In this document: piece by piece, positions 9,887 through 56,969 of the stretch
Layout: every line of letters starts with the position of its first letter
How positions within the stretch are numbered: position 1 is the first letter of the stretch
DNA from: Gammaproteobacteria bacterium
GTDB taxonomy: Bacteria > Pseudomonadota > Gammaproteobacteria > UBA4575
Direction of reading: 5' to 3'
Assembly: GCA_965207475.1 (NCBI GenBank)
Contig: OZ242278.1
Coordinates: 1,589,935 to 1,653,934, forward strand
DNA: 64,000 bases
Position numbers and translations under genes: made by a program
The notes under the pieces: model-generated
Seen by the model: only the letters and a program-made list of their open reading frames with translations
Databases searched by the model: none
Told to the model about the DNA's origin: nothing

Positions 9887-9967
9887 GAGCGGTGCATGTC
9901 GTTTTGTCTCCAAGTAGGGCAATATACCCTGTTATCCGTACTGTGACCTAATACCATTTTGCGATTC

Positions 9968-26197: not shown

Positions 26198-26223
26198 CCG
26201 GCGGGCTGGACCGGGTTACTCCA

Positions 26224-27798: not shown

Positions 27799-27916
27799 GG
27801 TATTTGAGCATGTGGCATGCATGGCATCCTGCAGCGGGCAGCTTGGCTTCGGACGGTCAGGGATTCGCGTGGCTTGACAGGAGAGCGGGGTGCCTGATGT
27901 CGTGGAGGCCGCTGCC

Positions 27917-38455: not shown

Positions 38456-40903
38456 ATGGCGGAGTATATGGCAGAACCGGGCGGCCTGGATCCCGGTATA
38501 TCTAGAAGAGGTATGGTCGAGCCGTCGGTTCTGAATGCTCTCCCGCACTTTTTGTCCCTTACAGTTTTTCCACTTTTAATCTGTGCCGTGGTATACGGTG
38601 GCTGGTGGATCATCGGGCCGTTTGTCTACTTCGGGCTCGCAAACTGGTTTGACTCGCTGTTTGGCATGGAAAAGCGAAACATGGACCCGGGCAATACGCT
38701 CGAAAGCCAGTTATTCCTGTACAAGCTAGCTGTCTGGATGTGGGCTGTGATGTGGCCCGCCACACTCGTGCTCTCGCTTTGGCTGATGCTTGTCGCTGAC
38801 CATTTGGCCGTTTGGGAATCTGCACTGATCACCATCACCTTGTTTTTTACAGCCCAGTCAATCTTCATCGTTGGACATGAGCTGGTGCACAGGACCTCCT
38901 GGCTGGAAAGACGGTTTGGTGAATTCCTCTTGGCGTCGTCTTCCTATCCGCATTACGCTACTGAACATATTTATGTTCATCATTCTCTGGCCTGTACGCC
39001 TGCTGATCCCGGGTCTGCGAGAAAGGGCCAGAGTTTCTGGCAGTACTTTCCCAGGGATTTGAGGCGAAGTCTGATCGAGTCCTGGCGTTTTGAGCGCGAC
39101 CGGCTTGCACGACGGCACTTGCCTGTGTGGCACTATACGAATCCTTTCTGGCGCTACTCCCTAGAAACCGCTGCGTGGTATGCGCTGGTGTACTGGATGG
39201 GAGGGATCTGGGTAGCGCTGGTCTTCGCCGTATTGTGTTTCTTCCTTGTCCTGTCGATGAAAATCATCAACTATGTCCAGCACTATGGGCTGGAGCGCAT
39301 CCGCCTTCCCGGCGGCCGGTATGAGCCGGTTCTGGTGCGACACTCCTGGAGTGCTGCCAGCAGGTTCACCAACTGGCTCTATTACAATATGCAACGCCAT
39401 TCGGACCATCACACCGAGGCCACCCGGTACTACCCGCTGTTGCAGTATCACGGTGGGGACGAGTCGCCACAGTTACCGGAAGGTTACTCCGCGATGGCTA
39501 ATTACGCGATGGTCCCTCGTGTCTGGTTCCGAAAGATGGATCCGCTGGTTGATCGCTGGCGTGCACACTTTTATCCACAGATTGAGGACTGGAGCGCCTA
39601 TGACAGCGCTGCATACGCTGCCTGCCCGGACGAGTTCGAAGCCATTTCGGAGATCTATGATGCCGCACCACGCATGGCCGAATGGATAAACCGGGCTCCG
39701 GAACTGCTCGAGAGCCTGCGGGACAGGGAGTTCACCGCTCTTGACCTCCCGGATGGCTTCGCCCCGGATCCGGAATTCGAAATGGTTGCGCGGCGAGGGC
39801 TGGCGCGTGTGTACTGGACACGCGAGTTTGATGTTTCTGAAATGAAGGAGCAACTTGCCGCAATACCGGCCCAGGGCGTAAAGGAAGTGGTAGAGACTGC
39901 AAGAAACTGGCTCAACGACAAGGTCTTTCAGATCAGCATGCACATGATCCGCGGTAATCTGCAGCCGACCGAGGCAGGGAAAGTCCTGTCCAACCTTGCC
40001 GAGGCCTCGGTCTGCATCCTGCTGTCGGCGGTTGAGGTGGAATTTGCCAACCGGCGTCGTCGACGCGGCGAAGGTGCCGTCACAGCTGTACTTCTGGGTG
40101 AATCTGCCAGCGGAGAGGCAGCACCCGGTACAAGGCTCGATGTCATGTTCGCGTACGAAGGCGGCCCTGTAGAATATTATCAAGCCCTGTGCAGACGGTT
40201 CCTTGAGGAACTGCGTACATTTTCGCATGAAAACCTGCTTTTTCAGCCACTTCCACGTGGCGGGAAGGGAAGGGGTGTCTGGTCCGTGGCTGAATTTGCC
40301 GAACATTACCGGGGAGACACGGTGAACGGTCTGCCGGACCTCATTCAGTCACGGTGTGTCTTTGAATCCGGAAATCCCGGAATTTGGACCCGCCTGGACA
40401 CGGTGCGACACGAAGTCCTGTCCTCTGGTGCTTCCCGCATCGCACAGGCAGATGCGTTGCGTGAAGCTCTGGGAGCAGCCGGTACGGCCGAACCGGGTCT
40501 GCAGTCGATCGAAGAAATGCGTGGTGGCCTTCGGGAGCTCGTGCATGCAGCCAGGCTGGTACAACTGGCCCATGCCGGTGAGGCTCCTGAAATTCTGGTT
40601 CCTGATACGGCTTCCGCATTCCGGACTGCAGGCAGTCTCGGGCTGATTGCCGGGGATGTCTCCAGGCGGCTGGCCGATGCAGCAGAGATGTGGTTGAACC
40701 TGCATGGCATTTTGCGACTGGTGGTCAAGGATGGCTTTGCCATCGAGAAGGCAACACCGAAGGTCCAAGCCGTCATTGCCCGTTCCTGCGGGATGAAGGA
40801 TTTCAGTGCGCTGACCGATGCAATACATGAAACGGCGGACCGTACCGCTGCAGACATCGATGCGCTGGACAGCACAGTCCTGAAATCAACCCGTATATCC
40901 TGA
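38456..40903 (+). CDS. Fusion protein: AlkB/fatty-acid-desaturase-type membrane di-iron oxygenase (N-terminal) + GlnE/GlnD-like nucleotidyltransferase domain (C-terminal)
   Basis: His boxes HELVHR, EHIYVHH, NYVQHYGL and RHSDHH lie within TM segments. The C-terminal half aligns with the GlnE adenylyltransferase core (LDVMFAYEG; LFQPLPRGGKGRGVWSVAEFAEHY; LIQSRCVFESGNP). A GGAGG SD precedes the ATG. Confidence 0.7.
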   Translation: MAEYMAEPGGLDPGISRRGMVEPSVLNALPHFLSLTVFPLLICAVVYGGWWIIGPFVYFGLANWFDSLFGMEKRNMDPGNTLESQLFLYKLAVWMWAVMWPATLVLSLWLMLVADHLAVWESALITITLFFTAQSIFIVGHELVHRTSWLERRFGEFLLASSSYPHYATEHIYVHHSLACTPADPGSARKGQSFWQYFPRDLRRSLIESWRFERDRLARRHLPVWHYTNPFWRYSLETAAWYALVYWMGGIWVALVFAVLCFFLVLSMKIINYVQHYGLERIRLPGGRYEPVLVRHSWSAASRFTNWLYYNMQRHSDHHTEATRYYPLLQYHGGDESPQLPEGYSAMANYAMVPRVWFRKMDPLVDRWRAHFYPQIEDWSAYDSAAYAACPDEFEAISEIYDAAPRMAEWINRAPELLESLRDREFTALDLPDGFAPDPEFEMVARRGLARVYWTREFDVSEMKEQLAAIPAQGVKEVVETARNWLNDKVFQISMHMIRGNLQPTEAGKVLSNLAEASVCILLSAVEVEFANRRRRRGEGAVTAVLLGESASGEAAPGTRLDVMFAYEGGPVEYYQALCRRFLEELRTFSHENLLFQPLPRGGKGRGVWSVAEFAEHYRGDTVNGLPDLIQSRCVFESGNPGIWTRLDTVRHEVLSSGASRIAQADALREALGAAGTAEPGLQSIEEMRGGLRELVHAARLVQLAHAGEAPEILVPDTASAFRTAGSLGLIAGDVSRRLADAAEMWLNLHGILRLVVKDGFAIEKATPKVQAVIARSCGMKDFSALTDAIHETADRTAADIDALDSTVLKSTRIS

Positions 40904-41010: not shown

Positions 41011-43359
41011 TTGGAGAAAAGTACGGACAGGAAGGCATCACCTAACGCCGGTTCATCCCGCAGTATTCTGAAGAAAACCACCGAAGCTGACTGCGGTTTC
41101 ATCGAGAAACCCGTACTTGTCCCGCACCTGGAATTCAGGTTGCTGGGCGGGCGGCAAGCGCTGCTGGTTTCTGAAACTTTCAACACGCTGCTCCATGGGC
41201 AGCTGGTTTGCGATATTCTGCCGCTTCTTGATGGCCGCCGCACACGCCGGGACATCATGGCATCCCTGACCGGCAAGCATCTGGGGCCCGATATCCTGAC
41301 CGCGCTCACCTTCTTGACAACCAAGGGGTATATTGTCTCGGGGGAGTACAGAATGGAACAGGGGCAGGCGGCATACTGGTCTTCACAGGGTGTCACTCCT
41401 CGATATGCCGAGGAGCGGCTGAAGTCATTGCAGGTAGATGTAGCCGGCGATGAAGGCCGCCACCTTGCCCGGCGGCTTGAAGCCATGGGTGTGTACTTGG
41501 ACAGGAGCCATCCGGCCCTTTCCATTATCATTTGTGCCGATTTTCTTGATGAGCGGAATGCGGCCCTCAACCGGCGCCATGTCAGCTCTGGCGTACCCTG
41601 GTTGCTGGTCAGGCCAAAGGGCGTGATTCCACTGCTTGGCCCGGTTTTCCGGCCTGCGGAGCAGGGGCCTTGCTGGGCCTGCCTGGCCTACCGCCTGCAA
41701 GGCCAGCAGGAGGTCCATAACTTCCTGCGCAATCGTGCCGGCACTGAGGCCGCCTTTCAGCCCTTTGCGGCCGAACCCATGGTGCTGGAGACGGTGTACG
41801 GGCTGTTTGCGGCGGAGATTGCCAAGTGGCTGGTCTTCGGCGAGCTGGCGCCGATACATGAGCATGCAATCACGCTGGATGTCGCTGCACTGAAAACGGC
41901 GAGACATCCGGTGCGCAGGCGACCACAGTGCGTGGTGTGCGGCGAGGAAAGGCACTTCAGCCCTGATCGCCCGGCCAGTCCGGTGCACCTCAAGTCCAGT
42001 CCCAAAAACGTTCAAAACAGTGGTGGTGTGCGCTCGGTGTCTCCCGAAGAGACCCTGGCCAAGTACCGCCATCTCATCAGCCCAGTCAGCGGGGTGGTGA
42101 CCTGGATCGAACGTACCACGGACGTGTACGATCACTGGCTTCATGTCTATTGGGCCGGTAGCAATCTGGCCCTTCGTGTCAAAAACCTGAGCTCGCTGAG
42201 ACGCAGCCTGCGGAGCAAGAGTGCAGGCAAGGGAAGCACACCCGAACAGTCCGAGGCGAGTGCGCTTTGCGAGGCGGTTGAGCGCTATTCGGGCGCATTC
42301 CACGGGGATGAGATCCGTACTTGCAAACGGTTTTCAGAATTTTCTGACAAGGAACAGGAGTTTGACGCCATCCACCCGAACCAGGTCCAGTTGTTCAGTG
42401 ATCACCAGTTCGACCATGCGCGCGAGATCAATGCCAGGCAACATCCCTACAATTTTGTTCCTGGCCGGCTCGACCCGGAGGCTGCGATCGAATGGTCGCC
42501 GGTCTGGTCGCTCACGCGAGGTCGGCACTGTTACCTTCCGACCTCCATGCTCTACAGCATGACGCCGGAGCAGCGAGGCACTTCAGACTTGATTGCGGAT
42601 TCGAACGGCTGTGCGGCCGGCAATACGCTGGAGGAAGCTATCCTGCAGGGATTTTTCGAACTGGTGGAACGTGACGCGTTCGCCATCTGGTGGTACAACC
42701 GGCTGCGCTTTCCCGCGGTCGACCTGGAGAGTTTTGGCGACGCCTACCTTGCGGGTGCGCAGGACTACTACCGAAAGCTCCACCGCGAGATGTGGCTGCT
42801 GGATATCACGGGTGATTTTGGCATTCCGGCCTTTATTTCCATCTCGCGACGAACCGATTCACAACCCGAAGACATCCTGTACGGGGCCGGTGCGCACACC
42901 GATCCGCATATCGCGGCCTTGCGTGCAGTATGCGAAATGAACCAGTGCCTGACCTGGGTTCCCCGCCCGGAAACCGGCCATACCGGGTACGGAGTGGATG
43001 ACCCGATGTGCCTGTCATGGTGGAAGAACGCCACGCTTGAGGAATATCCCTACCTGGCCCCCGATCCTGGGGCCGCAACACGGGGCCGCCCGGATTATTT
43101 CGTGCCCGAAACTTCGGATGTGAAAGAGGATGTCGAGCGGTGCGGTGCACTGGTAAAAGCCAGGGGCCTGGAGATGCTTGTACTTGACCAGACCCGTCCC
43201 GATATCGGCATGCCGGTAGCCCGGGTGATCGTGCCGGGATTGCGTCACTTCTGGGAAAGGTACGCACCGGGGCGCCTGTACGACGTGCCGGTCAACATGG
43301 GCTGGCGGGAAAAACCGCTGGCTGAGGCCGACCTCAACCCCGTCCCGGTCATCGCCTGA
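41011..43359 (+). CDS. Fused E1-like (leader-binding/ThiF-like) + YcaO cyclodehydratase, PatD/TruD-like
   Basis: The 782-aa protein has an N-terminal E1-like domain with Cys pairs (CWAC, CVVCGE) and a C-terminal YcaO domain (ALCEAVERYSG; CAAGNTLEEAILQGFFELVERDAFAIWWYN). It appears to start at TTG. Confidence 0.85.
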   Translation: MEKSTDRKASPNAGSSRSILKKTTEADCGFIEKPVLVPHLEFRLLGGRQALLVSETFNTLLHGQLVCDILPLLDGRRTRRDIMASLTGKHLGPDILTALTFLTTKGYIVSGEYRMEQGQAAYWSSQGVTPRYAEERLKSLQVDVAGDEGRHLARRLEAMGVYLDRSHPALSIIICADFLDERNAALNRRHVSSGVPWLLVRPKGVIPLLGPVFRPAEQGPCWACLAYRLQGQQEVHNFLRNRAGTEAAFQPFAAEPMVLETVYGLFAAEIAKWLVFGELAPIHEHAITLDVAALKTARHPVRRRPQCVVCGEERHFSPDRPASPVHLKSSPKNVQNSGGVRSVSPEETLAKYRHLISPVSGVVTWIERTTDVYDHWLHVYWAGSNLALRVKNLSSLRRSLRSKSAGKGSTPEQSEASALCEAVERYSGAFHGDEIRTCKRFSEFSDKEQEFDAIHPNQVQLFSDHQFDHAREINARQHPYNFVPGRLDPEAAIEWSPVWSLTRGRHCYLPTSMLYSMTPEQRGTSDLIADSNGCAAGNTLEEAILQGFFELVERDAFAIWWYNRLRFPAVDLESFGDAYLAGAQDYYRKLHREMWLLDITGDFGIPAFISISRRTDSQPEDILYGAGAHTDPHIAALRAVCEMNQCLTWVPRPETGHTGYGVDDPMCLSWWKNATLEEYPYLAPDPGAATRGRPDYFVPETSDVKEDVERCGALVKARGLEMLVLDQTRPDIGMPVARVIVPGLRHFWERYAPGRLYDVPVNMGWREKPLAEADLNPVPVIA

Positions 43360-43526: not shown

Positions 43527-43773
43527 CTCCACCGCATTGACCTTCAGTCTGTGTTGCCGCGGATGGTAAATACCTTGATCAACCTTGGTTTGGACTCAGT
43601 GGATTCGGAGCACGTGGTCTAAGTTGGACTGCTCTCGGAGTAACAGGGTTGCAGGCTGCGAAATGGCATGTTTATTACTTGGCATGAGGCTTCCGTTGCA
43701 ATGAAGCTTGTTGCGCGACTTGCCGCCAAGGCCGTTCGCAGCTAGTCACGTCATTCCTGTGAGCAAGCGCGGC

Positions 43774-46104
43774 ATGAAAAAAGGGCAATTTGCCAGGCGA
43801 TTTGCCGAACAGGTGCTCACGGCCCGCTGGCTGGTCATCGTGGCCACGCTGTTACTGGTTGCGGGCGCATCAAGCGGCATCGCCCTGCTTGAATTCTCAG
43901 CCAACTACCGAATCTTCTTCGACGAAGACAATCCGCAGCTTCTGGCATTGGAAGCACTGGAGAATACTTACGGGAAGAACGAGAACATCGTGTTCCTGAT
44001 TGCCCCGGACGATGGTGACGCCACGTCACAAAACGCACTGTCGGCCGCCGTCTGGCTCACGGAAGCCGCCTGGTTGACGCCCTATTCAAGGCGAGTCGAC
44101 TCACTCGCCAATTTTCAGTACACGACTGCCGATGGCGACGATCTGTATGTGCGGGACCTTGTTGATCCGCAGGAACTGGCCCAGGCCGAGGTGCGGTCAC
44201 GAATTCGTGACGTTGCCCTGTCCGACCCGCGGATAGCAGGCACCATTCTAGCCCGGAATGCTGATGTCAGCGTTGTAAACGTCGCGGTCGAGCTGCCCGA
44301 GGAGGGCCTGCTGGAGGCTGTGGCCGAAGTCGCCGAATATGCCAGGTCGGTTGCCGCGGAGGCTGAAGAACGGTTTCCCGACATAGACCTTCGCATCGTC
44401 GGTACGGTCATGATCAACCAAACCTTCCTGGAAGCCTCGATCAACAGCCAGAAGGTTTTCCTGCCCGCAAGCCTGCTGCTCATGGCCTTGATCCTTGGTG
44501 TCCTCACACGGGGCTGGGCAGGGGTGGCGGCGACCGGAATTGTCATAGTCTTTTCCATTTTCACGTCAGTGGGCCTGGGTGTGTGGGTCGGCTTACCCTT
44601 TTCCCCGCCCGTCTCGCCAGCACCGACCATCGTGCTGATGATCGTCGTGGCAAACTGTGTGCACTTGCTGGTGGCTGTGCAGCAGCATTTGCGTGCGGGG
44701 GATTCCAAGCACGACGCCATCGTTGAAGCTGTCAGGCTCAACTTGCACCCGGTATTTCTGGCGAGTCTCACAACGGCGATTGGATTCTTGAGCATGAACT
44801 TTTCCGAAGTGCCGCCCTATCGTCATCTCGGAAACTTCGTCGCATTCGGAATCGTCGCCTCTTTCGTTCTCTCCGTCACCTTTCTTCCGGCCCTGCTTTC
44901 GCTTCTTCCTATCCGTGCGGCAAAGGACCGTCGGCTGCTCCGCGGACCCACAATGCACCGCTTGGCGGATGTTGTGTTGCGCCATAGAAAGCCGCTGTTT
45001 TGGGGATGGCTGGTGGTTGTGCTTGCAATGATTCTGTCCATTCCGCGAAACGAGCTCAATGATGTTCTGGTCCACTTTTTCGATGAGGGCGTTGAATTCC
45101 GGCAAGATGTGGACTTCATGGACGAGCACCTAAGCGGCAACACCCTGCTTGAGTACTCGCTGCACGCATCTGCTGAGGGAGGTGTCACCGATCCGCTTTT
45201 CCTCGCCGAGGTTTCGAGCTTCGCCGGCTGGTACCGTGACCAGCCCCCTGTACGCCACGTGTCGGTCATTACCGATACCTTTCAGCAACTTAACAAGAGC
45301 ATGCACGGAGACGACCCGGGTGCCTACCGAATACCGGAAAGCCAGGAACTGGCGGCACAATACCTGCTGCTTTACGAACTCTCGCTTCCGCAGGGTCTGG
45401 ACCTGAACAATCAGATTGACAGGTCCAGATCAGCCACGAGAGTGACGGTCTCGGCGGAAACACTTTCTTCGCAAGAAGTGCTTGAGCTGAATGCGCGTGC
45501 CGAGGCATGGCTAAAGGAAAATGCATCGCATGTTGCCGGCGTCAACAGCACCGGCCCCGCCGCGTTGTTCGCCTACATCGGGCATCGCAACATTCGGGCC
45601 ATGCTAGTCGGGACAATGGTTGTTCTCTTGGCAATTTCTGTCATTCTGCTCGTCGCGTTGCAATCACTGCGACTGGGCTTGATAAGCATCGTCCCCAATT
45701 TGATTCCTGCAGTGCTGGGCTTCGGTGTCTGGGGATTGATGGTCGGACAGGTTGGACTTTCGCTATCTGTCGTGGTGGCCATGACCGTCGGCATCGTCGT
45801 GGATGACACTGTGCATTTTCTCAGCAAGTACCAGCGGGCGCGAAATGAATACGGCCAGAGTCCCGAGGAAGCGGTACGCTACGCCTTTGACACGGCAGGC
45901 CGGGCCCTGTTTACAACGACGGTCGTGCTGGTGGCCGGTTTTTTGATTTTTATGTTTTCACCCTTCGTTCCCACCGCACAGGTTGGTGTCCTCACCGGGA
46001 TGATTATTGCCTTTGCATTCATCGCCGACCTGACACTCCTGCCTGCGTTGCTGACAGCGGTGGACCGGAATGCTGCAAAGCGGACCGCGCTTGCACCCGA
46101 CTGA
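43774..46104 (+). CDS. MMPL-family / RND-superfamily exporter (HpnN-like, two SSD-like 6-TM bundles)
   Basis: The 776-aa protein has an N-terminal TM (RWLVIVATLLLVAG) and two periplasmic domains with an overall MMPL layout. The ATG at 43774 is preferred over the TTG at 43708. Confidence 0.8.
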   Translation: MKKGQFARRFAEQVLTARWLVIVATLLLVAGASSGIALLEFSANYRIFFDEDNPQLLALEALENTYGKNENIVFLIAPDDGDATSQNALSAAVWLTEAAWLTPYSRRVDSLANFQYTTADGDDLYVRDLVDPQELAQAEVRSRIRDVALSDPRIAGTILARNADVSVVNVAVELPEEGLLEAVAEVAEYARSVAAEAEERFPDIDLRIVGTVMINQTFLEASINSQKVFLPASLLLMALILGVLTRGWAGVAATGIVIVFSIFTSVGLGVWVGLPFSPPVSPAPTIVLMIVVANCVHLLVAVQQHLRAGDSKHDAIVEAVRLNLHPVFLASLTTAIGFLSMNFSEVPPYRHLGNFVAFGIVASFVLSVTFLPALLSLLPIRAAKDRRLLRGPTMHRLADVVLRHRKPLFWGWLVVVLAMILSIPRNELNDVLVHFFDEGVEFRQDVDFMDEHLSGNTLLEYSLHASAEGGVTDPLFLAEVSSFAGWYRDQPPVRHVSVITDTFQQLNKSMHGDDPGAYRIPESQELAAQYLLLYELSLPQGLDLNNQIDRSRSATRVTVSAETLSSQEVLELNARAEAWLKENASHVAGVNSTGPAALFAYIGHRNIRAMLVGTMVVLLAISVILLVALQSLRLGLISIVPNLIPAVLGFGVWGLMVGQVGLSLSVVVAMTVGIVVDDTVHFLSKYQRARNEYGQSPEEAVRYAFDTAGRALFTTTVVLVAGFLIFMFSPFVPTAQVGVLTGMIIAFAFIADLTLLPALLTAVDRNAAKRTALAPD

Positions 46105-46393: not shown

Positions 46394-46645
46394 ATGAGAA
46401 GCGGAGATGATATGCTGAAGCAGATTGTTGAGAAGTCTGCCTTGAATGCGGAGTTCAGGCAACAGCTTCTTGATGATCCAAAATCTACCATCAGTGGGGA
46501 GCTGGGTATTACAATTCCCGATTCGATGAATGTCGTGGTCCATGAGAGCGACATGCAGACGGTGCATCTTGCACTGCCACCGGACCCGAACATCACCGAG
46601 GAGCAGCTTGAGGCGATTTCAGCCGGCCTTTGCTGTTGCTGGTAG
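46394..46645 (+). CDS. NHLP (nitrile-hydratase-leader-peptide) family RiPP precursor; predicted core LCCCW after a GA/GG-type cleavage site (…EAISAG|LCCCW)
   Basis: The leader reads KQIVEKSALNAEFRQQLLDDPKSTISGELGITIPDSMNVVVHESDMQTVHLALPP, which is characteristic of NHLP leaders. An AGGAG SD lies 7 nt upstream, and the protein is 83 aa with a C-terminal Cys3-Trp. Confidence 0.8.
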   Translation: MRSGDDMLKQIVEKSALNAEFRQQLLDDPKSTISGELGITIPDSMNVVVHESDMQTVHLALPPDPNITEEQLEAISAGLCCCW

Positions 46646-46768: not shown

Positions 46769-47827
46769 TCAGGTGGAAACCGCTCCGGAAAGTACCATGA
46801 ACACGTAGGCTTTCGCTTTTCGGAGTTGATTTTCAGATATGACCAGTTTGATGTGGTGAATGCCACGTAGCATGACAAAACGCCCGGACTTTGCAAAGAG
46901 CGTTGTCGGTTTCGAAACCCAGTCAGCAAGTGCCGTCAGTTTCTCCGAGTCTACAAGGTCCTCATGACCGAGGGCATCCAAAAACGGGTCCCAATCGGTC
47001 AGGCCATCGAGCCAATAACGTGAATCCTTTGTATATCTCTGCTTGACGATAAGCGTAAGGCCGAGCGTCGGACCAACACCTTCTTCCCGCACGTCAATAT
47101 TCACCCCGGTCCTGACGATGTTCACGCGTTTCTTGAAGCGTGCAATCACGGAATCGACCGCAGAGACCTGGCCCGGCCAACCCGTGTTTTCGAGATAGCC
47201 ACATATTTCCTGCTGCGATTTGAAACCCATGATTGCCAGGCGGATTGCACGTGAGCGAGACGGGAATATGCCGAACGAATCCATGCGCGTATCGCCTGGC
47301 TGCGCCAGGTAGGCTCGTTCGACATTCTCCCGCTTGGTGTCGTGCATCCCCCAGCCTACACTGGAAACTAGCGCTTCAACCACCAGACCGATATCGTTCA
47401 CCTGACCACGGGCTCCAATGATTGGCCGTTCCCCGGGCCGAAGGAACATTCCCGGAAGCGAACAGTTGCTTTCCTGCGCCGAGCCAATGTCATATTCCAG
47501 CATCAGCTTGCGGCCTACGATTTCACGCAGGGGCGAGTTTTCGGCATCCATTTGTGTACACAACCGCGCGATCGCTTTTGCAGTCTCATCTGTCCTGTCA
47601 GTCCGTGCGCGCTCCATGAAAAACCCTGCCGTCCTGGTTCCGCTTGCCAGGGAAACGCCGAAATCCGCTTCAGGCCTGTGCGTATGCAACGGCAGTTCAA
47701 AGCCGAACGGAAGGGCGCCCATGGTAATGGGATGTTTCCTGGCACATTCGAGTATGCGCTCCCATTCCGGGACTCCGATAAGAATCGGAGAAATCCTGTT
47801 TCGAAAGTGCTCAAGCAATTCACCCAT
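46769..47827 (-). CDS. Hypothetical protein (352 aa) in RiPP cluster, unknown fold
   Basis: The ORF has coding-like composition and a GAGGG SD but no motif I recognise. It is the last gene of the minus-strand block. Confidence 0.5.
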   Translation of the reverse strand: MGELLEHFRNRISPILIGVPEWERILECARKHPITMGALPFGFELPLHTHRPEADFGVSLASGTRTAGFFMERARTDRTDETAKAIARLCTQMDAENSPLREIVGRKLMLEYDIGSAQESNCSLPGMFLRPGERPIIGARGQVNDIGLVVEALVSSVGWGMHDTKRENVERAYLAQPGDTRMDSFGIFPSRSRAIRLAIMGFKSQQEICGYLENTGWPGQVSAVDSVIARFKKRVNIVRTGVNIDVREEGVGPTLGLTLIVKQRYTKDSRYWLDGLTDWDPFLDALGHEDLVDSEKLTALADWVSKPTTLFAKSGRFVMLRGIHHIKLVISENQLRKAKAYVFMVLSGAVST

Positions 47828-48292: not shown

Positions 48293-49594
48293 TCAGGCCC
48301 TCAAGATTTCTACGAGACGCTCCAGGGCCTCGATACAAAAAGCAGAGGTAACGGATTCAGAGCCATGTCCTATCTGCCCTACAGCGCCCCACTTCAGCGA
48401 CTGGTCACCAAACGCGAGAAGCTCCGGCCAACTGCCGTCCTCATGTTGCGAGCTTATGAGCCTTTCCACCTGACGTTTCGCATCGGTGCTTTCAAGGTTG
48501 CCAGTATTGTAGAGCGCTGACACGGCCTGGGCGGTCTGGAGGATGTTGCCGAATTCTCCCTGCTCATCACGCAAGCCCAGGATACGGTCCGCAAGTAGCG
48601 GGCGCAGTTGATCAAGGGCAGGTTGCACACGAATCATGGCACGGGTGATTGCATAGCAGATTGTGACAGTGTCGGGATACCATTTGGACGAGCCCTCGAG
48701 GCTCCCGTCGGCAATCAGGGATTTCAGCCATCGTTGGGCAGCCTTGGTTTCGGGGTTGTCACCGAGGTAAGCGATGACGTTTGCATTGACTACGGGGTCC
48801 GCTTCGATACGAAATCTCGACACGACATTGGGCTCGTCTTCCTCCAGTACCCAGGTCATGAAACGACCCTCCTCGTCACGGTTCGCCAAGATTCGCGGAA
48901 CATTCCTTCCCAGCAAGATCCAGGGATGAGTCCCGATGACAAGGGAGCAGGTGGTGGTACTGTCAAGATCCTGGGGCAGATGCCGGTAGTAGCGCCACAA
49001 TCCGGGGTATTCAATGGTGTCGGCAAGATACGCCTTGGTGGCGGTGCATAGGGCCCTGGCCTTCGCTTCATCGCAGCATTCCAGGGCCAGTACGCAAAGA
49101 GCCGAGATAAAAGGAGGTCTTTCGAAATGCCGTGGGATGTCCGGGTCGGCTATGTTGAACCGGATGCAGTGCCAGGCACCATTTTCGTCAATTGTGGATT
49201 CCAGGAAATCGAGGCCGCGGCGGATACTTTTCCTGCCCGCTTTTACAAGCTCCTTGGTGGTGGCTGCGTGCTGTCGGGCGTACTCACTTTCAGGGGCAGG
49301 GGAACGAAAAGCCGGTGCGGGGTCATGAAGTGTCTTGCGAAGATACTCAAGTGAAGCAACGCCTGTTTTAGCCGCCTCCCGTTCGGCCTCACTGAGTTTG
49401 CTACACGGCGGCAGCACCAAGTGAGTCGAGGTATAGGTTTCTTCGTGCACGTGAATTTCATGATCCTCGGCCAGCGTCACGCCGAGTTCCTTTTCGATTG
49501 TTTCTTTGGGCTTCCCGAGCAGGCGTTCGCGAAAGTCACTGTCCTCGCCCGCTCTCGACACGAGAAACTCTGCTGCGTTATTCGGCTTTTTCAT
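48293..49594 (-). CDS. NHLP-leader-like N-terminal domain fused to an alpha/alpha-toroid repeat domain (prenyltransferase/terpene-cyclase-like NGAW/DGSW repeats)
   Basis: The first ~65 aa (FRERLLGKPKETIEKELGVTLAEDHEIHVHEETYTSTHLVLPP) are paralogous to the precursor's leader. The remaining ~360 aa contain ENGAW and EDGSW repeat motifs. Confidence 0.6.
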   Translation of the reverse strand: MKKPNNAAEFLVSRAGEDSDFRERLLGKPKETIEKELGVTLAEDHEIHVHEETYTSTHLVLPPCSKLSEAEREAAKTGVASLEYLRKTLHDPAPAFRSPAPESEYARQHAATTKELVKAGRKSIRRGLDFLESTIDENGAWHCIRFNIADPDIPRHFERPPFISALCVLALECCDEAKARALCTATKAYLADTIEYPGLWRYYRHLPQDLDSTTTCSLVIGTHPWILLGRNVPRILANRDEEGRFMTWVLEEDEPNVVSRFRIEADPVVNANVIAYLGDNPETKAAQRWLKSLIADGSLEGSSKWYPDTVTICYAITRAMIRVQPALDQLRPLLADRILGLRDEQGEFGNILQTAQAVSALYNTGNLESTDAKRQVERLISSQHEDGSWPELLAFGDQSLKWGAVGQIGHGSESVTSAFCIEALERLVEILRA

Positions 49595-49951: not shown

Positions 49952-52894
49952 TCAGGCGATCTGTCTTTTGACCAGTTTTCTGAATACCCCTTCAGCCTCC
50001 ATGAGTTCCTTGAAGGAGCCGCTTTGCACAACTTTTCCGGTCTGTAACACGTAGATGCGATCAGTCTGTTGCAGCGTGGACAGGCGATGGGCGATGACAA
50101 CCCGGGTGGGGGTCAGGGCAGTGAGGTTCTGCATGACCTTGGCCTGGTTTTCGTTATCCAGCCAGTTGGTTGCCTCGTCAAACAGCATGATTCGCGGACT
50201 GCCGATCACCGAGCGGGCGATTGTGACGCGCTGACTTTCACCCCCTGACAAAACCGCTCCGCTGGACCCGACCATGGTCATCATGCCCATGGGCATGCCC
50301 TTGATTTCGTTCTCGACTTCTGCAACCCTGGTCGCTGTCCAGACATCCTCGGTCGCCACTTCCTCGTGATGACTGACCAGATTGTCCCAGATATCCATGG
50401 GGTGGAGCCCGACAGATTGTGGCACTGCGCCGATTTTCCGGCGCACCTGTTTCAGGTTCAGGTGCCTCAGGTCCCGCCCGTCGTAATACACTGCGCCAGC
50501 AGTCGGGCGGTCGACTCCAAGCGCGAGCCGGAACAGGGTGCTCTTGCCTGCACCGGACTCGCCGGTGATCGCGACAAATTCGCCAGGACGGGCGTGAATC
50601 GTCACATCATCGAGAATTAACGGGCCATCAGGATCGTAACGAAAGGAAACCCGGTCGAACAGAATTTCGCCACCCAGATATTCAACCGGCTCTCCTTCGG
50701 TCTCGGTTTCAGGAACTGCTGCGAGCAGCGGACGCATCTGGTCGAATGCAGGCAGCATGGCGGCAATGGTGCCGAAGGACTCGCCCAGCCGGGCGATTGC
50801 GGACTGGAAAACGATGAAGACCAGGTAGACGACGAGAAAATCACCGATCAGGATGTGCCGGTCGCTCACCGCTGCCACCGCGAATAGCAGTACCCCACCC
50901 GCGAGAAAGGGGAGCGCGGCACCAAATGCGCGTGCATGCCCCTCAAATGCCCCCAGTTCGAGTTCTGCGCGTTTCTGCTCGCGATAATCCTGCGCCCAGA
51001 TGGCGAATGCCGAACCTTCCGCGTTTTCCACGCGCAGTTTGGTGAAACCGCCCACGATCTGGAACAGCCTGCCGGAAACACGACGCGCTGCACGGATCAT
51101 CCGCCCATATGGTGAAATCTGGAGCAAGCCAAGGGCTACCGTGATCAGCAGCGAAGCCAGACTGAAGGCGAGGGTAATGACCCCGAGGGTGGTGTTGTAG
51201 AAGAAAATGATGCCAAATACCGGAAGCAGGAAAATAATCGACAGCAAGCTGTCGGCGACGACTCCTTGCAAGCCATCGCGAAGATTCTGGAACGTCATCC
51301 CCGACATGGCCAGGTCGCCGGTTGAATGGCGGTGCAGAATGCTTGCCGGAAGGCGCATGAGGCGGTCCCAAAAGGCAGCTTCGGCCCGCGATGCGGAACG
51401 ACCCTCAAGCCGCATCATTGCCGTGCTTTGAAACAGGTGCAGCAGTGCACCGAGCAGACCAAATACCGCCAGCGCCACGGCCACTGAATAGATCACTCCG
51501 GCACTTCCGCCTGCAGTTATTTCATTTGCAGCGTAGCCTAGGGCGAGGGCTGGCAACAGTTTGATCAGGCCGCCCGGAAGCCCGGAAATCACCAGCCGCA
51601 CCAGATCCGCGGCTGATCCATGCAGGGCGATTCCCAGCAGGTCAGACGGTTTCACGTTCTCCGAAGGCAAGGGGCGATAGAACATCCAGGCTTCTTCCCC
51701 CAGCGTGTTGGCGCGACCTGCTGCAATCCGCACGCTGCACTTGCTGACTGGGTCGATTTCCCGATAGCGCCCAAATTTTCCCGGCAGCAGCGCTACGGGC
51801 TGGCCATCCTCTGCCCGAAATCCCAGCATCGCGCTACTGTCGCCGCGCCACCAGTGGTCTTCGGCTTTCAATCGTACGCGCCGGGCACGTACGGCTGATG
51901 CATCAAGCACTTCAACGAGGCTGACCGGAGTATCGGAAGGTTCCGAGCGCGTGGGAATCTTGAAATCGATACCTTCATGGCGGCCGATGATTTGCAAGGC
52001 ATCTGTCAGGGCCGTGTCTTCGACACGGGTATCCTGGCCTGTCGGCAAGTCATAGATATTGAAAAGCCGCTGTCGTGCAGTTTTTTCAGCCGTACGTCGG
52101 CTGGTCGTCCGTGCACGTTCGAGATTCACTTCGTCGACCACGGCCAGTTGGCGGTTAAGGCGTTCCAGGGCGAATGCAACCGCGTGAAAAGATGCGAGCG
52201 CTGGCAGCAACATGTCTTGCTGAGCCAGTGTTTCCGTTGATTTACCCAGCAATGTGGCCCTGTCAAACAAGGTGAGCCAGCTTGTCCGCGTCAGCGGTAT
52301 CATGGTTTCATGTGAGCCGCTTGCTTCGGCAAGCTCTGCCTGGTCGACGATGTCCATGAACAGGAATTCGCCGCGCAGTGGCTTGGATACCCATACCACA
52401 TTGCGATGTACGGACAGTATGCAAGGTGGAAAGGTCCGTGCCATACCGGGATCGGCCAGCGCAGTTGCACGCGGAATGGGGCTTGCAAACCGAGAAAGTG
52501 TGTCAGTAATGGCGGTCAGCCAGGTATCCGTCTGCTCCGCCAGTTCTGCCGGATGAACCTCGGACAGCAAGGATGCCGGGAGGCGCTTCAGAAGAGTACC
52601 TGGCGATCCTTTTGCAATCAGGCTGAGGGTGGTATCTTTATTGTTGTCACGTTCGTCTGGTGCCACCCCCGGCAGTATCCAGCCCGCTTCGCGACGCAGC
52701 AGATGCTGCGGCGCTGCCTGTTCCACCCCGTCCTTGAATTCAACCAGGAACAGATTGACGGAACCCTGGTCAATAAACCAGACACTGCCTGGGTCGTCGA
52801 GTTTCACCGGCAAGTTGCCGGCACAAGGTACGGTTGTGCCGGAACGAGCTACGAGTTCGGCAATCGATGTGCAGTTCGGGCTTTTGTCCAGCAT
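49952..52894 (-). CDS. NHLP/NHLM-type bacteriocin ABC transporter, ATP-binding/permease protein without an active peptidase (N-terminal accessory domain + 6TM + NBD)
   Basis: The 980-aa protein has Walker A GESGAGKST and signature LSGGESQRV, with a ~450-aa N-terminal extension lacking the C39 Cys. Confidence 0.8.
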   Translation of the reverse strand: MLDKSPNCTSIAELVARSGTTVPCAGNLPVKLDDPGSVWFIDQGSVNLFLVEFKDGVEQAAPQHLLRREAGWILPGVAPDERDNNKDTTLSLIAKGSPGTLLKRLPASLLSEVHPAELAEQTDTWLTAITDTLSRFASPIPRATALADPGMARTFPPCILSVHRNVVWVSKPLRGEFLFMDIVDQAELAEASGSHETMIPLTRTSWLTLFDRATLLGKSTETLAQQDMLLPALASFHAVAFALERLNRQLAVVDEVNLERARTTSRRTAEKTARQRLFNIYDLPTGQDTRVEDTALTDALQIIGRHEGIDFKIPTRSEPSDTPVSLVEVLDASAVRARRVRLKAEDHWWRGDSSAMLGFRAEDGQPVALLPGKFGRYREIDPVSKCSVRIAAGRANTLGEEAWMFYRPLPSENVKPSDLLGIALHGSAADLVRLVISGLPGGLIKLLPALALGYAANEITAGGSAGVIYSVAVALAVFGLLGALLHLFQSTAMMRLEGRSASRAEAAFWDRLMRLPASILHRHSTGDLAMSGMTFQNLRDGLQGVVADSLLSIIFLLPVFGIIFFYNTTLGVITLAFSLASLLITVALGLLQISPYGRMIRAARRVSGRLFQIVGGFTKLRVENAEGSAFAIWAQDYREQKRAELELGAFEGHARAFGAALPFLAGGVLLFAVAAVSDRHILIGDFLVVYLVFIVFQSAIARLGESFGTIAAMLPAFDQMRPLLAAVPETETEGEPVEYLGGEILFDRVSFRYDPDGPLILDDVTIHARPGEFVAITGESGAGKSTLFRLALGVDRPTAGAVYYDGRDLRHLNLKQVRRKIGAVPQSVGLHPMDIWDNLVSHHEEVATEDVWTATRVAEVENEIKGMPMGMMTMVGSSGAVLSGGESQRVTIARSVIGSPRIMLFDEATNWLDNENQAKVMQNLTALTPTRVVIAHRLSTLQQTDRIYVLQTGKVVQSGSFKELMEAEGVFRKLVKRQIA

Positions 52895-55104: not shown

Positions 55105-55656
55105 TTATGACCGCCTCATTCGCAATAGTGTGACCGGGGCTTGCCTGCCAATTTTGATGACAACCTGGCATTCCCTGCTCGCAAGGGAAGCAAAATAAAG
55201 GCTTTCGTCGAGTGTGATGTTTACCCGGTGTAAGGACACCGGCGCTGCAGGGTCGAACACTGCCAGCTCCTCGGATAAGGGTATGGCGGTGATTTTTGCA
55301 ACCTTTCCGTCGAGTGAGTCAGCTTGTCCACCTGACTTTTCCAACTCTATCACCGCTGGCATCCCGGCCTTGATATGCGGTGCGACGTCGCTCCGGGCCC
55401 AGACGAGCACTTGCACGGTCCTGTTGCCCTCAAGCAGGTTTTCACCAGGCTCGACCAGCACGCCATCCACCGCGAGACTACGGGCCATGCTCCCGAAGAA
55501 GAGCCACGCAGCAAGGATGAACAGTAAAAGAGCAATGACAGCAACAAGAAGCCGCTCCCGCGGTGTGGAAATCGTCAGCAGCCGGTCAAGTTGTTCCCGT
55601 TCTTCCTTTGCTTCGGCAACAGTGTTGTGGAATGAGTCAAATGGATTATTGAACAC
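55105..55656 (-). CDS. Short HlyD-like secretion (membrane-fusion) protein of the NHLP export module
   Basis: A single N-terminal TM precedes a periplasmic domain. It is only 183 aa, against about 400 aa for typical NHLM secretion proteins, and is translationally coupled to the C39 ABC gene. Confidence 0.55.
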   Translation of the reverse strand: MFNNPFDSFHNTVAEAKEEREQLDRLLTISTPRERLLVAVIALLLFILAAWLFFGSMARSLAVDGVLVEPGENLLEGNRTVQVLVWARSDVAPHIKAGMPAVIELEKSGGQADSLDGKVAKITAIPLSEELAVFDPAAPVSLHRVNITLDESLYFASLASRECQVVIKIGRQAPVTLLRMRRS

Positions 55657-56150
55657 GACCGTGAATCTCCCTATGAAAAATCAGGCAGGGGCAAAAATCT
55701 GGTCCAGCTTGAGTAGGATTTTTAGAGATTATATGCAAATATCGATTGTGAAATATAAAATTTTCATGGTTCTGGAAATTTAGTGTGGTGTGTATCGGCG
55801 GAGGGCTTTCAGGCCAGGTCGTTTTCAGCTTCTTTATTTTGGTCAAGCCCCGTTTCTGGTCTTCCATCCGGAGGCAGTGGAGCCAGTAGCCTGTGATCGC
55901 GGCGGGAAGGGCATGGTACAGGTCGCCGGCAATCCCATGCCGTGGTGGCCTCCTCGTCGATGCCGGTGATCACCGGCATCGTGTCATGAATCCTCTGCCG
56001 AGTGCGCCCTGTTGGAATTTCCAGCCAGCCCATGGCTTCACCCTTTGCAGGGAATTCACGGTATAATGCCACTCGTTTGTCACGGTACCTGTGTAGATGT
56101 TTCCTGACTACGAAACTGCCGAAATCCGGCTTGTCGGCCGAGACTGGACA

Positions 56151-56969
56151 ATGGGCTTCCCGTGTACACAGGGTGCTTCGTTCAGTGTTCTGATTCTGTT
56201 ACTGGCGTGCTTCTGCCTGCTGCATACGCACGTCCTCGCCCGGGAAGAAACGCCGGAGGAGAAGGGTCTGAGAATTGCGCGTGAAGCAAGCGCCCGCAAC
56301 GACGGATTCGATGATTTCACTGCTGGAATGACGATGGTGCTGCGCGACCGGCAAGGTCGGGAGAGCATCCGTCAGATGCGCTTCAAGGTGCTGGAGGTGC
56401 CGGGTGATGGCGATAAGAGCCTGTTTGTGTTCGATCAGCCGCGAGACGTACAGGGGACCGCCCTGTTGACCCATGGCCACATTAACTCCCAGGACGACCA
56501 GTGGCTGTATCTGCCGGCCCTGAAAAGAGTGAAGCGCATCAGTGCCACGGCGCGTTCCGGGTCATTTATGGGAAGCGAGTTTTCCTACGAGGACATGAGC
56601 TCTCCGGAGGTGGAGGAATACACGTACAAATACCTTCGCGACGAGCCCTGCGGCGAACTCACCTGTACAGTGACCGAGCAAGTCCCTCTGGAGAAAAAAT
56701 CCGGATACAGCCGCAAGGTCATTTGGCAAGACACAGGCGAACTTCGCGTCTGGAAGATGGAGCTCTATGACCGAAGGAACTCGCATCTGAAAACGCTCAC
56801 TTTTGAAAGCTACAAGCAATACCTGGGCCGGTACTGGCGGGCAGGCGAACAGACGATGGTGAATCACTTGACCGGGGCGAGCACTGTGCTTAAATGGACC
56901 GATTACCGGTTTCGCACCAATCTTGAAGACAGCGAATTCACCAAACCGGCACTTCGGCGCGTGCGCTGA
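56151..56969 (+). CDS. Outer-membrane lipoprotein-sorting (LolA-like) family protein, typical partner of MMPL exporters
   Basis: A signal peptide precedes a WLYLPALKRVKRIS region typical of LolA-like/DUF1329-type proteins. Its stop is coupled to the downstream OMP gene. Confidence 0.6.
   Translation: MGFPCTQGASFSVLILLLACFCLLHTHVLAREETPEEKGLRIAREASARNDGFDDFTAGMTMVLRDRQGRESIRQMRFKVLEVPGDGDKSLFVFDQPRDVQGTALLTHGHINSQDDQWLYLPALKRVKRISATARSGSFMGSEFSYEDMSSPEVEEYTYKYLRDEPCGELTCTVTEQVPLEKKSGYSRKVIWQDTGELRVWKMELYDRRNSHLKTLTFESYKQYLGRYWRAGEQTMVNHLTGASTVLKWTDYRFRTNLEDSEFTKPALRRVR

What the first reader, a model, noticed from the sequence alone, without database searches (positions are those of the whole stretch)
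41011..43359. PatD/TruD-like fused cyclodehydratase with no recognisable azoline dehydrogenase
The 782-aa protein has the E1-like plus YcaO architecture of cyanobactin heterocyclases. The window contains no McbC/SagB-type FMN dehydrogenase and no TfuA. The expected chemistry would therefore stop at thiazolines unless another enzyme oxidises them. Thioamidation or amidine formation by the YcaO domain cannot be excluded. The AlkB-like oxygenase or the 352-aa unknown protein might be the oxidising enzyme.
Basis: inference. Interest (0 to 1): 0.6.

Follow-up and report, generated by a model that had tools for sequence, protein, structure and literature searches.

The report
Known sponge-symbiont thiazoline-forming RiPP enzyme (SrpC)
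The gene is real and correctly read as a TruD-like cyclodehydratase without a partner dehydrogenase, but it is the SrpC enzyme of the "srp" peptide gene cluster, which was described in sponge microbiomes in 2021 and shown to make thiazolines, so the finding is already known.

Summary
ORF 41011-43359 (+) encodes a 782-aa fused RRE/E1-like + YcaO cyclodehydratase. It aligns end to end with TruD and LynD (E about 1e-168, 45% identity to TruD). It sits in a complete "srp" (sponge-derived RiPP proteusin) gene cluster at 38.4-59.8 kb. The 83-aa NHLP precursor at 46394-46645 is 83% identical to published SrpE and has the identical end ...EAISAG|LCCCW. A Trp halogenase at 58478-59747 is about 80% identical to published SrpI, though it carries a frameshift here. 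The two NHLP-type ABC exporters are also present. Published work reports that SrpC converts the three Cys to thiazolines and that SrpI brominates the C-terminal Trp. No SagB/nitroreductase or TfuA gene exists anywhere in the window. That absence is typical: none of the 23 related LCCCW-type loci carries one within 10 kb, whereas the RCCCC-type relatives do. The 352-aa unknown protein is not SagB-like; its model has an ABBA prenyltransferase barrel fold. The AlkB-like/GlnE-like fusion is the most constant neighbour of the YcaO, but it co-occurs with SagB in the RCCCC-type loci, so it is not an obvious substitute oxidase. What remains open is the final product and the roles of the accessory genes.

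The parts
41011..43359 (+). SrpC-type cyclodehydratase: RRE winged-HTH (residues 38-108), E1-like/leader-binding domain (196-363) and YcaO domain (405-779), fused in one chain
   Evidence: Pfam and NCBIfam matches. Near-full-length match to TruD and LynD; two-stretch match to MusD. 44.7% identity to TruD. 354 relatives confirmed in genome contigs, nearly all of the 80 retrieved being sponge-symbiont MAGs.
46394..46645 (+). SrpE precursor (83 aa): NHLP leader, ITEEQL (LxxxxL) motif, cleavage site ...EAISAG, core LCCCW
   Evidence: TIGR03793 66.1 bits, above the 50.9 cut-off. 83% identical to published SrpE with an identical C-terminal 17 residues. The 252-bp size and ITEEQL consensus match bioRxiv 10.1101/2023.06.09.544420.
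58478..59750 (+). SrpI-type flavin-dependent Trp brominase gene, split by a frameshift at about 58851-58870 inside a (CG)n run
   Evidence: tblastn with published SrpI: residues 1-131 at 82% identity in frame +2 and residues 126-426 at 77% in frame +3. Sequence of the junction. Pfam Trp_halogenase on both halves. Relatives have intact ORFs of about 424 aa.
38456..40903 (+). AlkB-like diiron membrane oxygenase (residues about 50-370) fused to a conserved linker (370-500) and a GlnE-like nucleotidyltransferase-type region (about 470-800). It is the most constant neighbour of the YcaO, directly upstream.
   Evidence: Pfam FA_desaturase and GlnE. PDB AlkB 8f6t E 2.3e-56. tblastn hit in 66 of 80 loci and an ORF-family member in 56, mostly immediately upstream of the YcaO. 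His boxes conserved, NTase part poorly conserved, D-V-M in place of DxD.
46769..47827 (-). 352-aa conserved protein with a predicted ABBA (PT-barrel) aromatic-prenyltransferase fold and no sequence family
   Evidence: No Pfam or NCBIfam hit. No PDB match by sequence profile. AF2 model pLDDT 81, pTM 0.84, with five beta-beta-alpha-alpha repeats. Foldseek gave 84 PDB hits at E<=1e-3, and every one of the 50 listed is an ABBA prenyltransferase, e.g. 6-DMATS 6zrx, NphB 1zb6, PriB, CloQ. Present in 64 of 80 loci.
48293..49594 (-). 433-aa protein: NHLP leader-like N-terminus (39% identical to the SrpE leader) fused to an alpha/alpha-toroid domain of terpene-cyclase/prenyltransferase type with an invariant DLDST motif
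   Evidence: TIGR03793 48 bits (below cut-off) and SQHop_cyclase_C. tblastn. Family 76-92% identical across phyla. Low-confidence model (pLDDT 57) whose best hits are class II terpene cyclases. Motif. Almost entirely confined to LCCCW-type loci.
49952..52894 (-). NHLP bacteriocin export ABC transporter, permease/ATPase subunit (ABC2)
   Evidence: TIGR03797 E 1.3e-199
52894..55104 (-). NHLP bacteriocin export ABC transporter with a C39 peptidase domain (ABC1); presumed to remove the leader after ...SAG
   Evidence: TIGR03796 E 1.1e-252; Peptidase_C39 E 8e-34
55105..55656 (-). Short (183 aa) HlyD-like adaptor, co-directional with the ABC genes. The 189-aa ORF on the + strand (55214-55783) is its antisense shadow.
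   Evidence: Translation. N-terminal match to TIGR03794 NHLM_micro_HlyD. Homologous 190-aa ORFs sit upstream of ABC1 in 16 loci.
43708..46104 (+). MMPL/HAE3-type RND transporter, in 41 of 80 related loci
   Evidence: Pfam MMPL, TIGR00921; co-occurrence
56097..58198 (+). LolA-like lipoprotein-sorting protein (56097-56969) and a protein weakly similar to DUF1302 (56969-58198). Possible outer-membrane trafficking partners; present in 11 and 8 related loci.
   Evidence: Pfam LolA_like E 7e-60; DUF1302 only E 5e-4, below cut-off; co-occurrence

Best explanation
The ORF is the SrpC-type cyclodehydratase of a complete srp (sponge-derived RiPP proteusin) gene cluster carried by a sponge-symbiont gammaproteobacterium. 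Its N-terminal winged-helix RRE and E1-like domain bind the NHLP leader of SrpE (46394-46645), including the ITEEQL LxxxxL motif. Its YcaO domain uses ATP to cyclodehydrate the three consecutive cysteines of the five-residue core LCCCW into three thiazolines. SrpI then brominates the C-terminal Trp while the leader is still attached, although its gene carries a frameshift in this assembly. The C39-peptidase ABC exporter cleaves after ...SAG and exports the product together with ABC2 and a short HlyD-like adaptor. Because no azoline dehydrogenase is encoded, the rings most likely stay as thiazolines. Basis of each step: sequence identity and architecture are shown here; thiazoline formation and leader-dependent bromination were shown in the literature for the published system; leader binding, cleavage and export in this organism are inferred; the mature natural product is unknown.
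For: Architecture and near-full-length similarity to TruD and LynD. The ATP/Mg motif regions CEAxERYSG and LEEAILQGFxELVERD and the Pro-rich C-terminus NPVPV align with TruD. SrpE is 83% identical to the published sequence with the identical LCCCW core, and SrpI is 77-82% identical. The literature states that SrpC converts the three Cys of LCCCW to thiazolines and that SrpI brominates the C-terminal Trp only when the leader is attached (PMC10286304, PMC10858898). srp precursors are 252-bp genes with an ITEEQL consensus, spread over many phyla and highly transcribed in sponges. TIGR03796, TIGR03797 and TIGR03794-like export genes are present. Homologues at 61-96% identity occur in MAGs of Gamma- and Alphaproteobacteria, Nitrospirales, Binatia, Acidobacteriota, Gemmatimonadota, Acidimicrobiia, Thermodesulfobacteriota and Opitutales, with sponge-associated names. 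No dehydrogenase or TfuA is in the window, and none is in any of the 23 LCCCW-type loci, whereas RCCCC-type loci do carry a Nitroreductase/ThcOx protein, which serves as a positive control.
Against: Orthology of the YcaO therefore rests on its partners and context, not on a direct comparison. Published SrpC was poorly active and gave mixtures of partly modified products in E. coli, so the in vivo end state is not established. Papers also write 'azole'. srpI is frameshifted here, so this genome may make a non-brominated product, or the assembly has an error. Four conserved accessory genes have no assigned role, so the pathway is certainly longer than described.
Confidence: 0.88

Rival explanations
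1. The thiazolines are oxidised to thiazoles by a non-canonical oxidase in the cluster, most plausibly the AlkB-like diiron membrane enzyme encoded directly upstream. Its family carries out O2-dependent hydroxylation and desaturation.
For: The AlkB-like/GlnE-like fusion is the most constant neighbour of the YcaO, with a tblastn hit in 66 of 80 loci and usually immediately upstream on the same strand. Its His boxes are conserved, so it is probably catalytically competent. Azoline-to-azole conversion is formally a desaturation. Papers use the cautious term 'azole' for srp products.
Against: In the four RCCCC-type loci a true Nitroreductase/ThcOx dehydrogenase sits next to the YcaO and the AlkB-like gene is still present. 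It is therefore not a replacement for the dehydrogenase. AlkB enzymes act on hydrophobic chains in the membrane and need an electron donor, and none is fused or conserved nearby. I found no precedent in the searchable literature.
Confidence: 0.1
2. The YcaO performs thioamidation or amidine (macroamidine) formation rather than azoline formation.
For: YcaO domains can catalyse these reactions.
Against: There is no TfuA and no sulfur-delivery partner. The protein has the fused RRE/E1-like architecture and 45% identity to the azoline-forming TruD, and it scores above the cut-off for TIGR03604. The core is three Cys, and published SrpC forms thiazolines.
Confidence: 0.01
3. The cluster is decaying in this genome and the YcaO has no current product.
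For: srpI is interrupted by a frameshift in a (CG)n run. The genomes of the closest relatives are small, about 2 Mb.
Against: All other cluster ORFs are intact and full length, and homologues are the same length. A single 2-nt or 1-nt indel in a dinucleotide run is a typical assembly error. srp precursors are among the most highly transcribed genes in sponge symbionts.
Confidence: 0.05

Closest known systems
SrpC / srp BGC (sponge-derived RiPP proteusins; Nguyen et al., J Am Chem Soc 2021; follow-ups PMC10286304, PMC10858898)
   Same: NHLP precursor SrpE with an identical ...EAISAG|LCCCW end (83% identity overall). SrpI-type brominase (about 80% identity). YcaO cyclodehydratase, two NHLP-type ABC exporters, no azoline dehydrogenase, and distribution across sponge-symbiont phyla.
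   Different: The leader motif is ITEEQL rather than the published LTEEQL; ITEEQL is the variant reported as consensus in bioRxiv 10.1101/2023.06.09.544420. srpI is frameshifted in this assembly. I could not compare directly with the published SrpC sequence.
Cyanobactin heterocyclases TruD, LynD and PatD (PDB 4bs9, 4v1t) and MusD (7u58)
   Same: The same three-domain, single-chain architecture (RRE, E1-like, YcaO). 44.7% identity to TruD over 731 positions. Conserved nucleotide-binding motifs and Pro-rich C-terminus. Recognition of an LxxxxL leader motif.
   Different: The precursor has a structured NHLP (proteusin) leader, not a PatE-type leader. There are no PatA/PatG proteases or macrocyclase. 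Export is by C39-ABC transporters. The sponge YcaOs form a tight clade well separated from TruD.
MprC/MprD of Methylovulum psychrotolerans (proteusin cyclodehydratase plus flavin azoline oxidase)
   Same: A YcaO acting on NHLP-leader precursors. MprC/MprD can process an LCCCW core fused to an Mpr leader.
   Different: The mpr cluster encodes the oxidase MprD and this cluster does not. MprC does not accept the SrpE leader.
RCCCC-type relatives in Bryobacterales/Terriglobia sponge MAGs (loci L038, L056, L064, L077)
   Same: The same YcaO family (62-63% identity), AlkB-like gene, 352-aa family member, NHLP precursor and ABC exporters.
   Different: They carry a Nitroreductase/ThcOx (SagB-type) dehydrogenase next to the YcaO and have a core with four Cys. 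They have no halogenase and no toroid protein.

Membership tests
Fused RRE/E1-like + YcaO azoline-forming cyclodehydratases (PatD/TruD/LynD class) | Complete YcaO domain | tested here: met
   PF02624 at 405-745, model positions 1-325 of 325, E 3.7e-95. TIGR03604 273.8 bits, above the 219.25 cut-off.
Fused RRE/E1-like + YcaO azoline-forming cyclodehydratases (PatD/TruD/LynD class) | N-terminal leader-binding (RRE winged helix) and E1-like domains in the same polypeptide | tested here: met
   PF21084 at 38-108. TIGR03882 at 196-363 (143 bits, cut-off 36.9). Alignment to TruD covers query residues 36-780.
Fused RRE/E1-like + YcaO azoline-forming cyclodehydratases (PatD/TruD/LynD class) | Conserved ATP/Mg-binding motifs and Pro-rich C-terminus | tested here: met
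   CEAVERYSG, LEEAILQGFFELVERD and the C-terminal ...NPVPV align with TruD CEAIERYSG, LEEAILQGFMELVERD and ...NPTPM. That these are the functional residues is from established YcaO knowledge.
Fused RRE/E1-like + YcaO azoline-forming cyclodehydratases (PatD/TruD/LynD class) | ATP-dependent azoline formation on a Cys/Ser/Thr core | not testable with these tools
   Reported for SrpC in the published system (PMC10286304, PMC10858898). Not measured for this protein.
srp BGC (sponge-derived RiPP proteusin) | NHLP-leader precursor SrpE with LCCCW core | tested here: met
   83% identity to published SrpE with identical core and cleavage region. TIGR03793 above cut-off.
srp BGC (sponge-derived RiPP proteusin) | SrpI flavin-dependent Trp brominase | tested here: inconclusive
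   The gene is present at 77-82% identity to published SrpI but is split by a frameshift at about 58851-58870. Whether this is a real mutation or an assembly error is unresolved.
srp BGC (sponge-derived RiPP proteusin) | YcaO cyclodehydratase orthologous to SrpC | tested here: inconclusive
srp BGC (sponge-derived RiPP proteusin) | Occurrence in sponge microbiomes across bacterial phyla | tested here: met
   The 80 related loci retrieved come from MAGs of many phyla with sponge-associated names (Poriferihabitaceae, Porisulfidus, Foliamicus, Palauibacter, Spongia bin).
Cyanobactin pathway | PatA/PatG-type subtilisin proteases or macrocyclase and a PatE-type precursor | tested here: not met
   No such proteases among the window ORFs scanned. 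The precursor is NHLP type and processing is by a C39-ABC transporter.
Azole-forming TOMM/LAP systems (BCD type) | SagB/McbC-type FMN dehydrogenase | tested here: not met
   No Nitroreductase or ThcOx hit in any ORF scanned. Six-frame tblastn with SagB-type proteins of related loci was negative. Positive control: L056 protein PF00881 E 3.4e-15.
YcaO-TfuA thioamidation systems | TfuA partner | tested here: not met
   No TfuA family match in any window ORF scanned.
ABBA (PT-barrel) aromatic prenyltransferases (for the 352-aa neighbour) | Ten-stranded antiparallel barrel of five alpha-alpha-beta-beta repeats | tested here: met
   The AF2 model (pLDDT 81, pTM 0.84) shows the repeat pattern. Foldseek probability is 1.0 to 6-DMATS, NphB, PriB, CloQ, AmbP and CymD, but TM is only 0.4-0.57.
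ABBA (PT-barrel) aromatic prenyltransferases (for the 352-aa neighbour) | Sequence membership, diphosphate-binding residues and prenyl transfer activity | tested here: inconclusive
   No Pfam, NCBIfam or PDB sequence match even with a diverse profile. Conserved Arg, Lys, Tyr and His on the predicted strands (R191, R196, H325, K327, K339, Y341) are compatible with diphosphate binding but could not be mapped in 3D. Activity is not testable here.

The most novel reading that the evidence does not exclude
The mature srp product may be more than a brominated tri-thiazoline pentapeptide. It could be an isoprenoid-decorated, membrane-directed molecule. The near-universal 352-aa partner has an ABBA prenyltransferase barrel. 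LCCCW-type clusters add an enzyme of class II terpene-cyclase type that carries its own NHLP leader-like domain, possibly for docking or for leader-guided export. An AlkB-like membrane oxygenase is encoded next to the YcaO in most related loci. An MMPL/LolA-like system could carry a lipophilic product to the outer membrane. I found none of these assignments in the literature I could search, which calls these 'genes of unknown function'.
Probability: 0.3. Interest if true: 0.65.

Novelty: already known. Interest (0 to 1): 0.2.

Why it matters
The finding itself adds nothing new: the srp cluster and the thiazoline-forming role of SrpC were published in 2021-2024. It matters as a correct placement. 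This window holds one more copy of one of the most widespread and most highly transcribed peptide gene clusters in sponge microbiomes, and the natural product and biological role of that cluster are still unknown. The comparative results obtained along the way suggest concrete experiments toward the missing final structure. Those results are that the dehydrogenase-less state is the rule for LCCCW clusters, that a dehydrogenase is present only in RCCCC-type relatives, that the invariant unknown protein has a prenyltransferase fold, and that there is a terpene-cyclase-like protein with a leader-like domain.

Tried and rejected
1. The original srp paper (PMC8780398) and the mpr paper (PMC9746716) are not held. 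Gene-by-gene published annotation and the SrpC sequence could therefore not be compared.

2. Reviews and a 2026 preprint on sponge halogenated peptides held nothing on srp accessory genes.

3. 352-aa protein as SagB-like dehydrogenase: rejected, because the model has an ABBA prenyltransferase fold.

4. Sequence-level link of the 352-aa family to known prenyltransferases was not found. Searches tried: Pfam on 26 close and 41 diverse members, a profile against PDB sequences, and a profile search of 1.84 billion representatives (658 relatives, none with a Pfam domain among those tested).

6. The toroid protein model is low confidence (pLDDT 57), so its fold hits are only suggestive.

7. I tried to check the srpI frameshift in another assembly through the neighbouring LolA-like protein. 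Only a 1.2-kb Tara contig was found, which does not reach srpI.

8. The apparent 189-aa gene at 55214-55783 (+) was rejected as the antisense shadow of the HlyD-like gene at 55105-55656 (-). The 689-aa ORF at 26182-28251 (-), which has no Pfam match, partly overlaps the purD-like gene at 27890-29206 (+) and is probably not a real gene.

9. An apparent SagB hit in 53 loci was traced to one query ORF (L052) that overlaps the YcaO C-terminus. It is not a real dehydrogenase signal.
Full report
**Observation.** The ORF at 41011-43359 (+) is real and encodes 782 aa.
- Pfam finds a complete YcaO domain at residues 405-745 (E 3.7e-95) and an RRE-type winged helix at 38-108.
- NCBIfam adds TIGR03604 (SagD family, above cut-off) and TIGR03882 (TOMM leader-binding cyclodehydratase domain) at 196-363.
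- Against solved structures it aligns over residues 36-780 with the cyanobactin heterocyclases TruD (4bs9, E 4.7e-168) and LynD (4v1t). It also matches MusD (7u58) in two stretches.
- Identity to TruD is 44.7% over 731 positions: 39% in the N-terminal half and 50% in the YcaO half.
- The nucleotide-binding motif regions and the Pro-rich C-terminus are conserved in that alignment.

**No dehydrogenase, no TfuA.**
- I scanned a greedy set of largely non-overlapping ORFs of at least 90 aa across the whole 64-kb window, plus three further ORFs, against Pfam. No Nitroreductase, ThcOx or TfuA match appeared.
- As an independent six-frame test I used the SagB-type proteins found in related loci as tblastn queries against the window. 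Only chance-level hits resulted. The single significant hit (E 2.5e-7, from the L052 query) lies on the C-terminus of the YcaO gene itself.
- The flanks hold housekeeping genes (purD, accBC, groEL, gshA, dsbD, gcvT, gcvP). The cluster spans roughly 38.4-59.8 kb.

**What it is.**
- The neighbours identify the system. At 46394-46645 (+) lies an 83-aa NHLP-leader precursor ending ...PPDPNITEEQLEAISAG|LCCCW.
- The sequences of SrpE and SrpI are printed in the supplement of PMC10286304.
- The window precursor is 83% identical to SrpE, with an identical core and cleavage region.
- The Trp-halogenase gene at 58478-59747 is 77-82% identical to SrpI.
- Two NHLP-type ABC exporters (TIGR03796 with a C39 peptidase, and TIGR03797) and a truncated NHLM HlyD-like adaptor complete the export set.
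- This is the "srp" (sponge-derived RiPP proteusin) cluster first reported by Nguyen et al. (JACS 2021).
- The follow-up papers state that the YcaO SrpC cyclodehydrates the three contiguous Cys of the LCCCW core to thiazolines. They also state that SrpI brominates the C-terminal Trp in a leader-dependent way (PMC10286304, PMC10858898).
- A transcriptomic preprint describes the same 252-bp precursor genes. It reports an ITEEQL consensus, spread over many phyla and very high expression in sponges.

**Distribution.**
- A scan of one genome per species confirmed 354 relatives of the YcaO. The 80 best are 61-96% identical.
- They come from MAGs of Gamma- and Alphaproteobacteria, Nitrospirales, Binatia, Acidobacteriota, Gemmatimonadota, Acidimicrobiia, Thermodesulfobacteriota and Opitutales. 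Many have sponge-associated names.
- The closest is a 2.05-Mb gammaproteobacterial MAG (96% identity).

**Comparative analysis of the 80 loci.**
- Within 10 kb of the YcaO, tblastn finds the following neighbours:

| Neighbour | Loci (of 80) |
|---|---|
| AlkB-like/GlnE-like fusion, usually directly upstream on the same strand | 66 |
| NHLP precursor | 65 |
| 352-aa family | 64 |
| ABC exporters | 49-56 |
| MMPL transporter | 41 |

- Precursor cores fall into types: LCCCW, LCCCG(I/L/F/V), LCCC(L/V), LCCCG, RCCC, LSCC(L/V/G) and RCCCC(A/F/I).
- The halogenase accompanies the LCCCW type, or occurs in loci where no precursor was captured. The NHLP-toroid protein also accompanies LCCCW, with one exception (L006, core LCCCGF).
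- Other types add a methyltransferase (24 loci) or an FAD_binding_4 oxidase (14 loci).
- A genuine Nitroreductase/ThcOx dehydrogenase (PF00881 E 3.4e-15, PF22767 E 1.2e-10) occurs only in the four RCCCC-type loci and in one locus whose precursor ends SCVSTF.
- None of the 23 LCCCW-type loci has one. The dehydrogenase-less state of this window is therefore the rule for its type, and the method could detect a dehydrogenase when one is present.
- An NJ tree without support values places all sponge YcaOs in a tight clade far from TruD. The RCCCC/SagB group is nested inside it, and LCCCW-linked YcaOs fall in at least three clades, which hints at module shuffling.

- The 352-aa protein has no Pfam or NCBIfam match but is very conserved: 77-86% identity in more than 100 database clusters.
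- An AlphaFold model (pLDDT 81, pTM 0.84) shows five beta-beta-alpha-alpha repeats.
- Foldseek against the PDB returns 84 hits at E<=1e-3. Every one of the 50 listed is an ABBA aromatic prenyltransferase: 6-DMATS, NphB/Orf2, PriB, IptA, AmbP1/3, CloQ, EpzP, CymD. Probability is 1.0 but TM is only 0.4-0.57.
- No link at sequence level could be made even with a diverse profile. "Prenyltransferase" is therefore a fold-based inference.
- The 815-aa protein is a true AlkB-family enzyme at residues 52-368 (8f6t, E 2.3e-56), with conserved His boxes.
- Its region 370-500 is strongly conserved. Its GlnE-like part is poorly conserved and has D-V-M where nucleotidyltransferases have DxD.
- It may act in the pathway. 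However, because it co-occurs with SagB in RCCCC-type loci, it does not behave as an alternative azoline oxidase.

**Mechanism.**
- Shown here: the gene set, architecture, precursor and absence of a dehydrogenase.
- Shown in the literature for the published system: thiazoline formation by SrpC and leader-dependent Trp bromination by SrpI.
- Inferred: RRE binding of the ITEEQL motif, C39 cleavage after SAG, export, and persistence of thiazolines in vivo.
- Unknown: the mature product and the roles of the AlkB-like, ABBA-fold, toroid, MMPL and LolA-like proteins.

**Verdict.** Novelty is "already known" and interest is low (0.2). The most novel reading still open is that the srp product is further prenylated or terpenoid-modified and membrane-directed (probability about 0.3).

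Noticed in passing
window 46769-47827 (-): The 352-aa 'unknown' protein belongs to a large orphan family: 658 representatives at 50% clustering, with no Pfam domain. Its model is an ABBA prenyltransferase barrel. It is more conserved (77-86% identity) than the YcaO itself, and diverged paralogues (33-50%) sit directly downstream of the YcaO in cluster types whose core has no Trp.
   Followed up: yes
window 48293-49594 (-): A 433-aa protein carries an NHLP leader-like N-terminus, 39% identical to the SrpE leader and including the LVLPP motif and an xG at the position of the cleavage site. This is fused to an alpha/alpha toroid whose best fold hits are class II terpene cyclases, with an invariant DLDST motif at 209-213. 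Some database records mis-name the family 'nitrile hydratase subunit alpha'. The leader-like domain could serve for docking or for leader-guided export of an enzyme.
   Followed up: partly
window 58851-58870: srpI changes reading frame (+2 to +3) inside the run acgcgcgcgcc. The change is equivalent to a 2-nt loss or a 1-nt gain in a (CG)n repeat. Relatives have intact genes of about 424 aa. Small indel-like differences from published SrpI also occur near the C-terminus (around 59480-59560).
   Followed up: partly
window 38456-40903 (+): An AlkB-family diiron oxygenase is fused to a GlnE-like nucleotidyltransferase-type region, apparently degenerate (D-V-M instead of DxD), with a strongly conserved 130-residue linker. 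It lies next to the YcaO across many phyla. No rubredoxin or other electron donor is fused or conserved nearby.
   Followed up: partly
window 55105-55656 (-) versus 55214-55783 (+): The real gene is the 183-aa truncated HlyD-like adaptor on the minus strand, abutting ABC1. The longer plus-strand ORF is an antisense shadow.
   Followed up: yes
loci L004-L080: The sponge YcaO family serves a set of tiny cores: LCCCW, LCCCGI/GL/GF, LCCCL/V, LCCCG, RCCC, LSCCL/V/G and RCCCCA/F/I. Several genomes carry two types (L015, L035, L048, L080). LCCCW-linked YcaOs are polyphyletic in an NJ tree, which suggests exchange of cluster modules.
   Followed up: partly
loci L038, L056, L064, L077 (about 8.0-9.4 kb) and L052 (12072-13706): A SagB/ThcOx-type dehydrogenase sits next to the YcaO only in RCCCC-type clusters (Bryobacterales/Terriglobia) and in one locus whose precursor ends SCVSTF. 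In L052 the dehydrogenase ORF overlaps, or is fused to, the end of the YcaO gene.
   Followed up: partly
window 43708-46104 (+) and 56097-58198 (+): An MMPL/HAE3 RND transporter, a LolA-like protein and a protein weakly similar to DUF1302 recur in srp-type loci (41, 11 and 8 of 80). This is the kind of set used to move lipophilic molecules to the outer membrane.
   Followed up: no
window 460-1431 (+) and 8579-9922 (-): Away from the cluster there is a radical SAM/DUF3641 protein followed by HlyD and AcrB genes, and a DinB_2 + FGE-sulfatase (EgtB/OvoA-like) protein.
   Followed up: no
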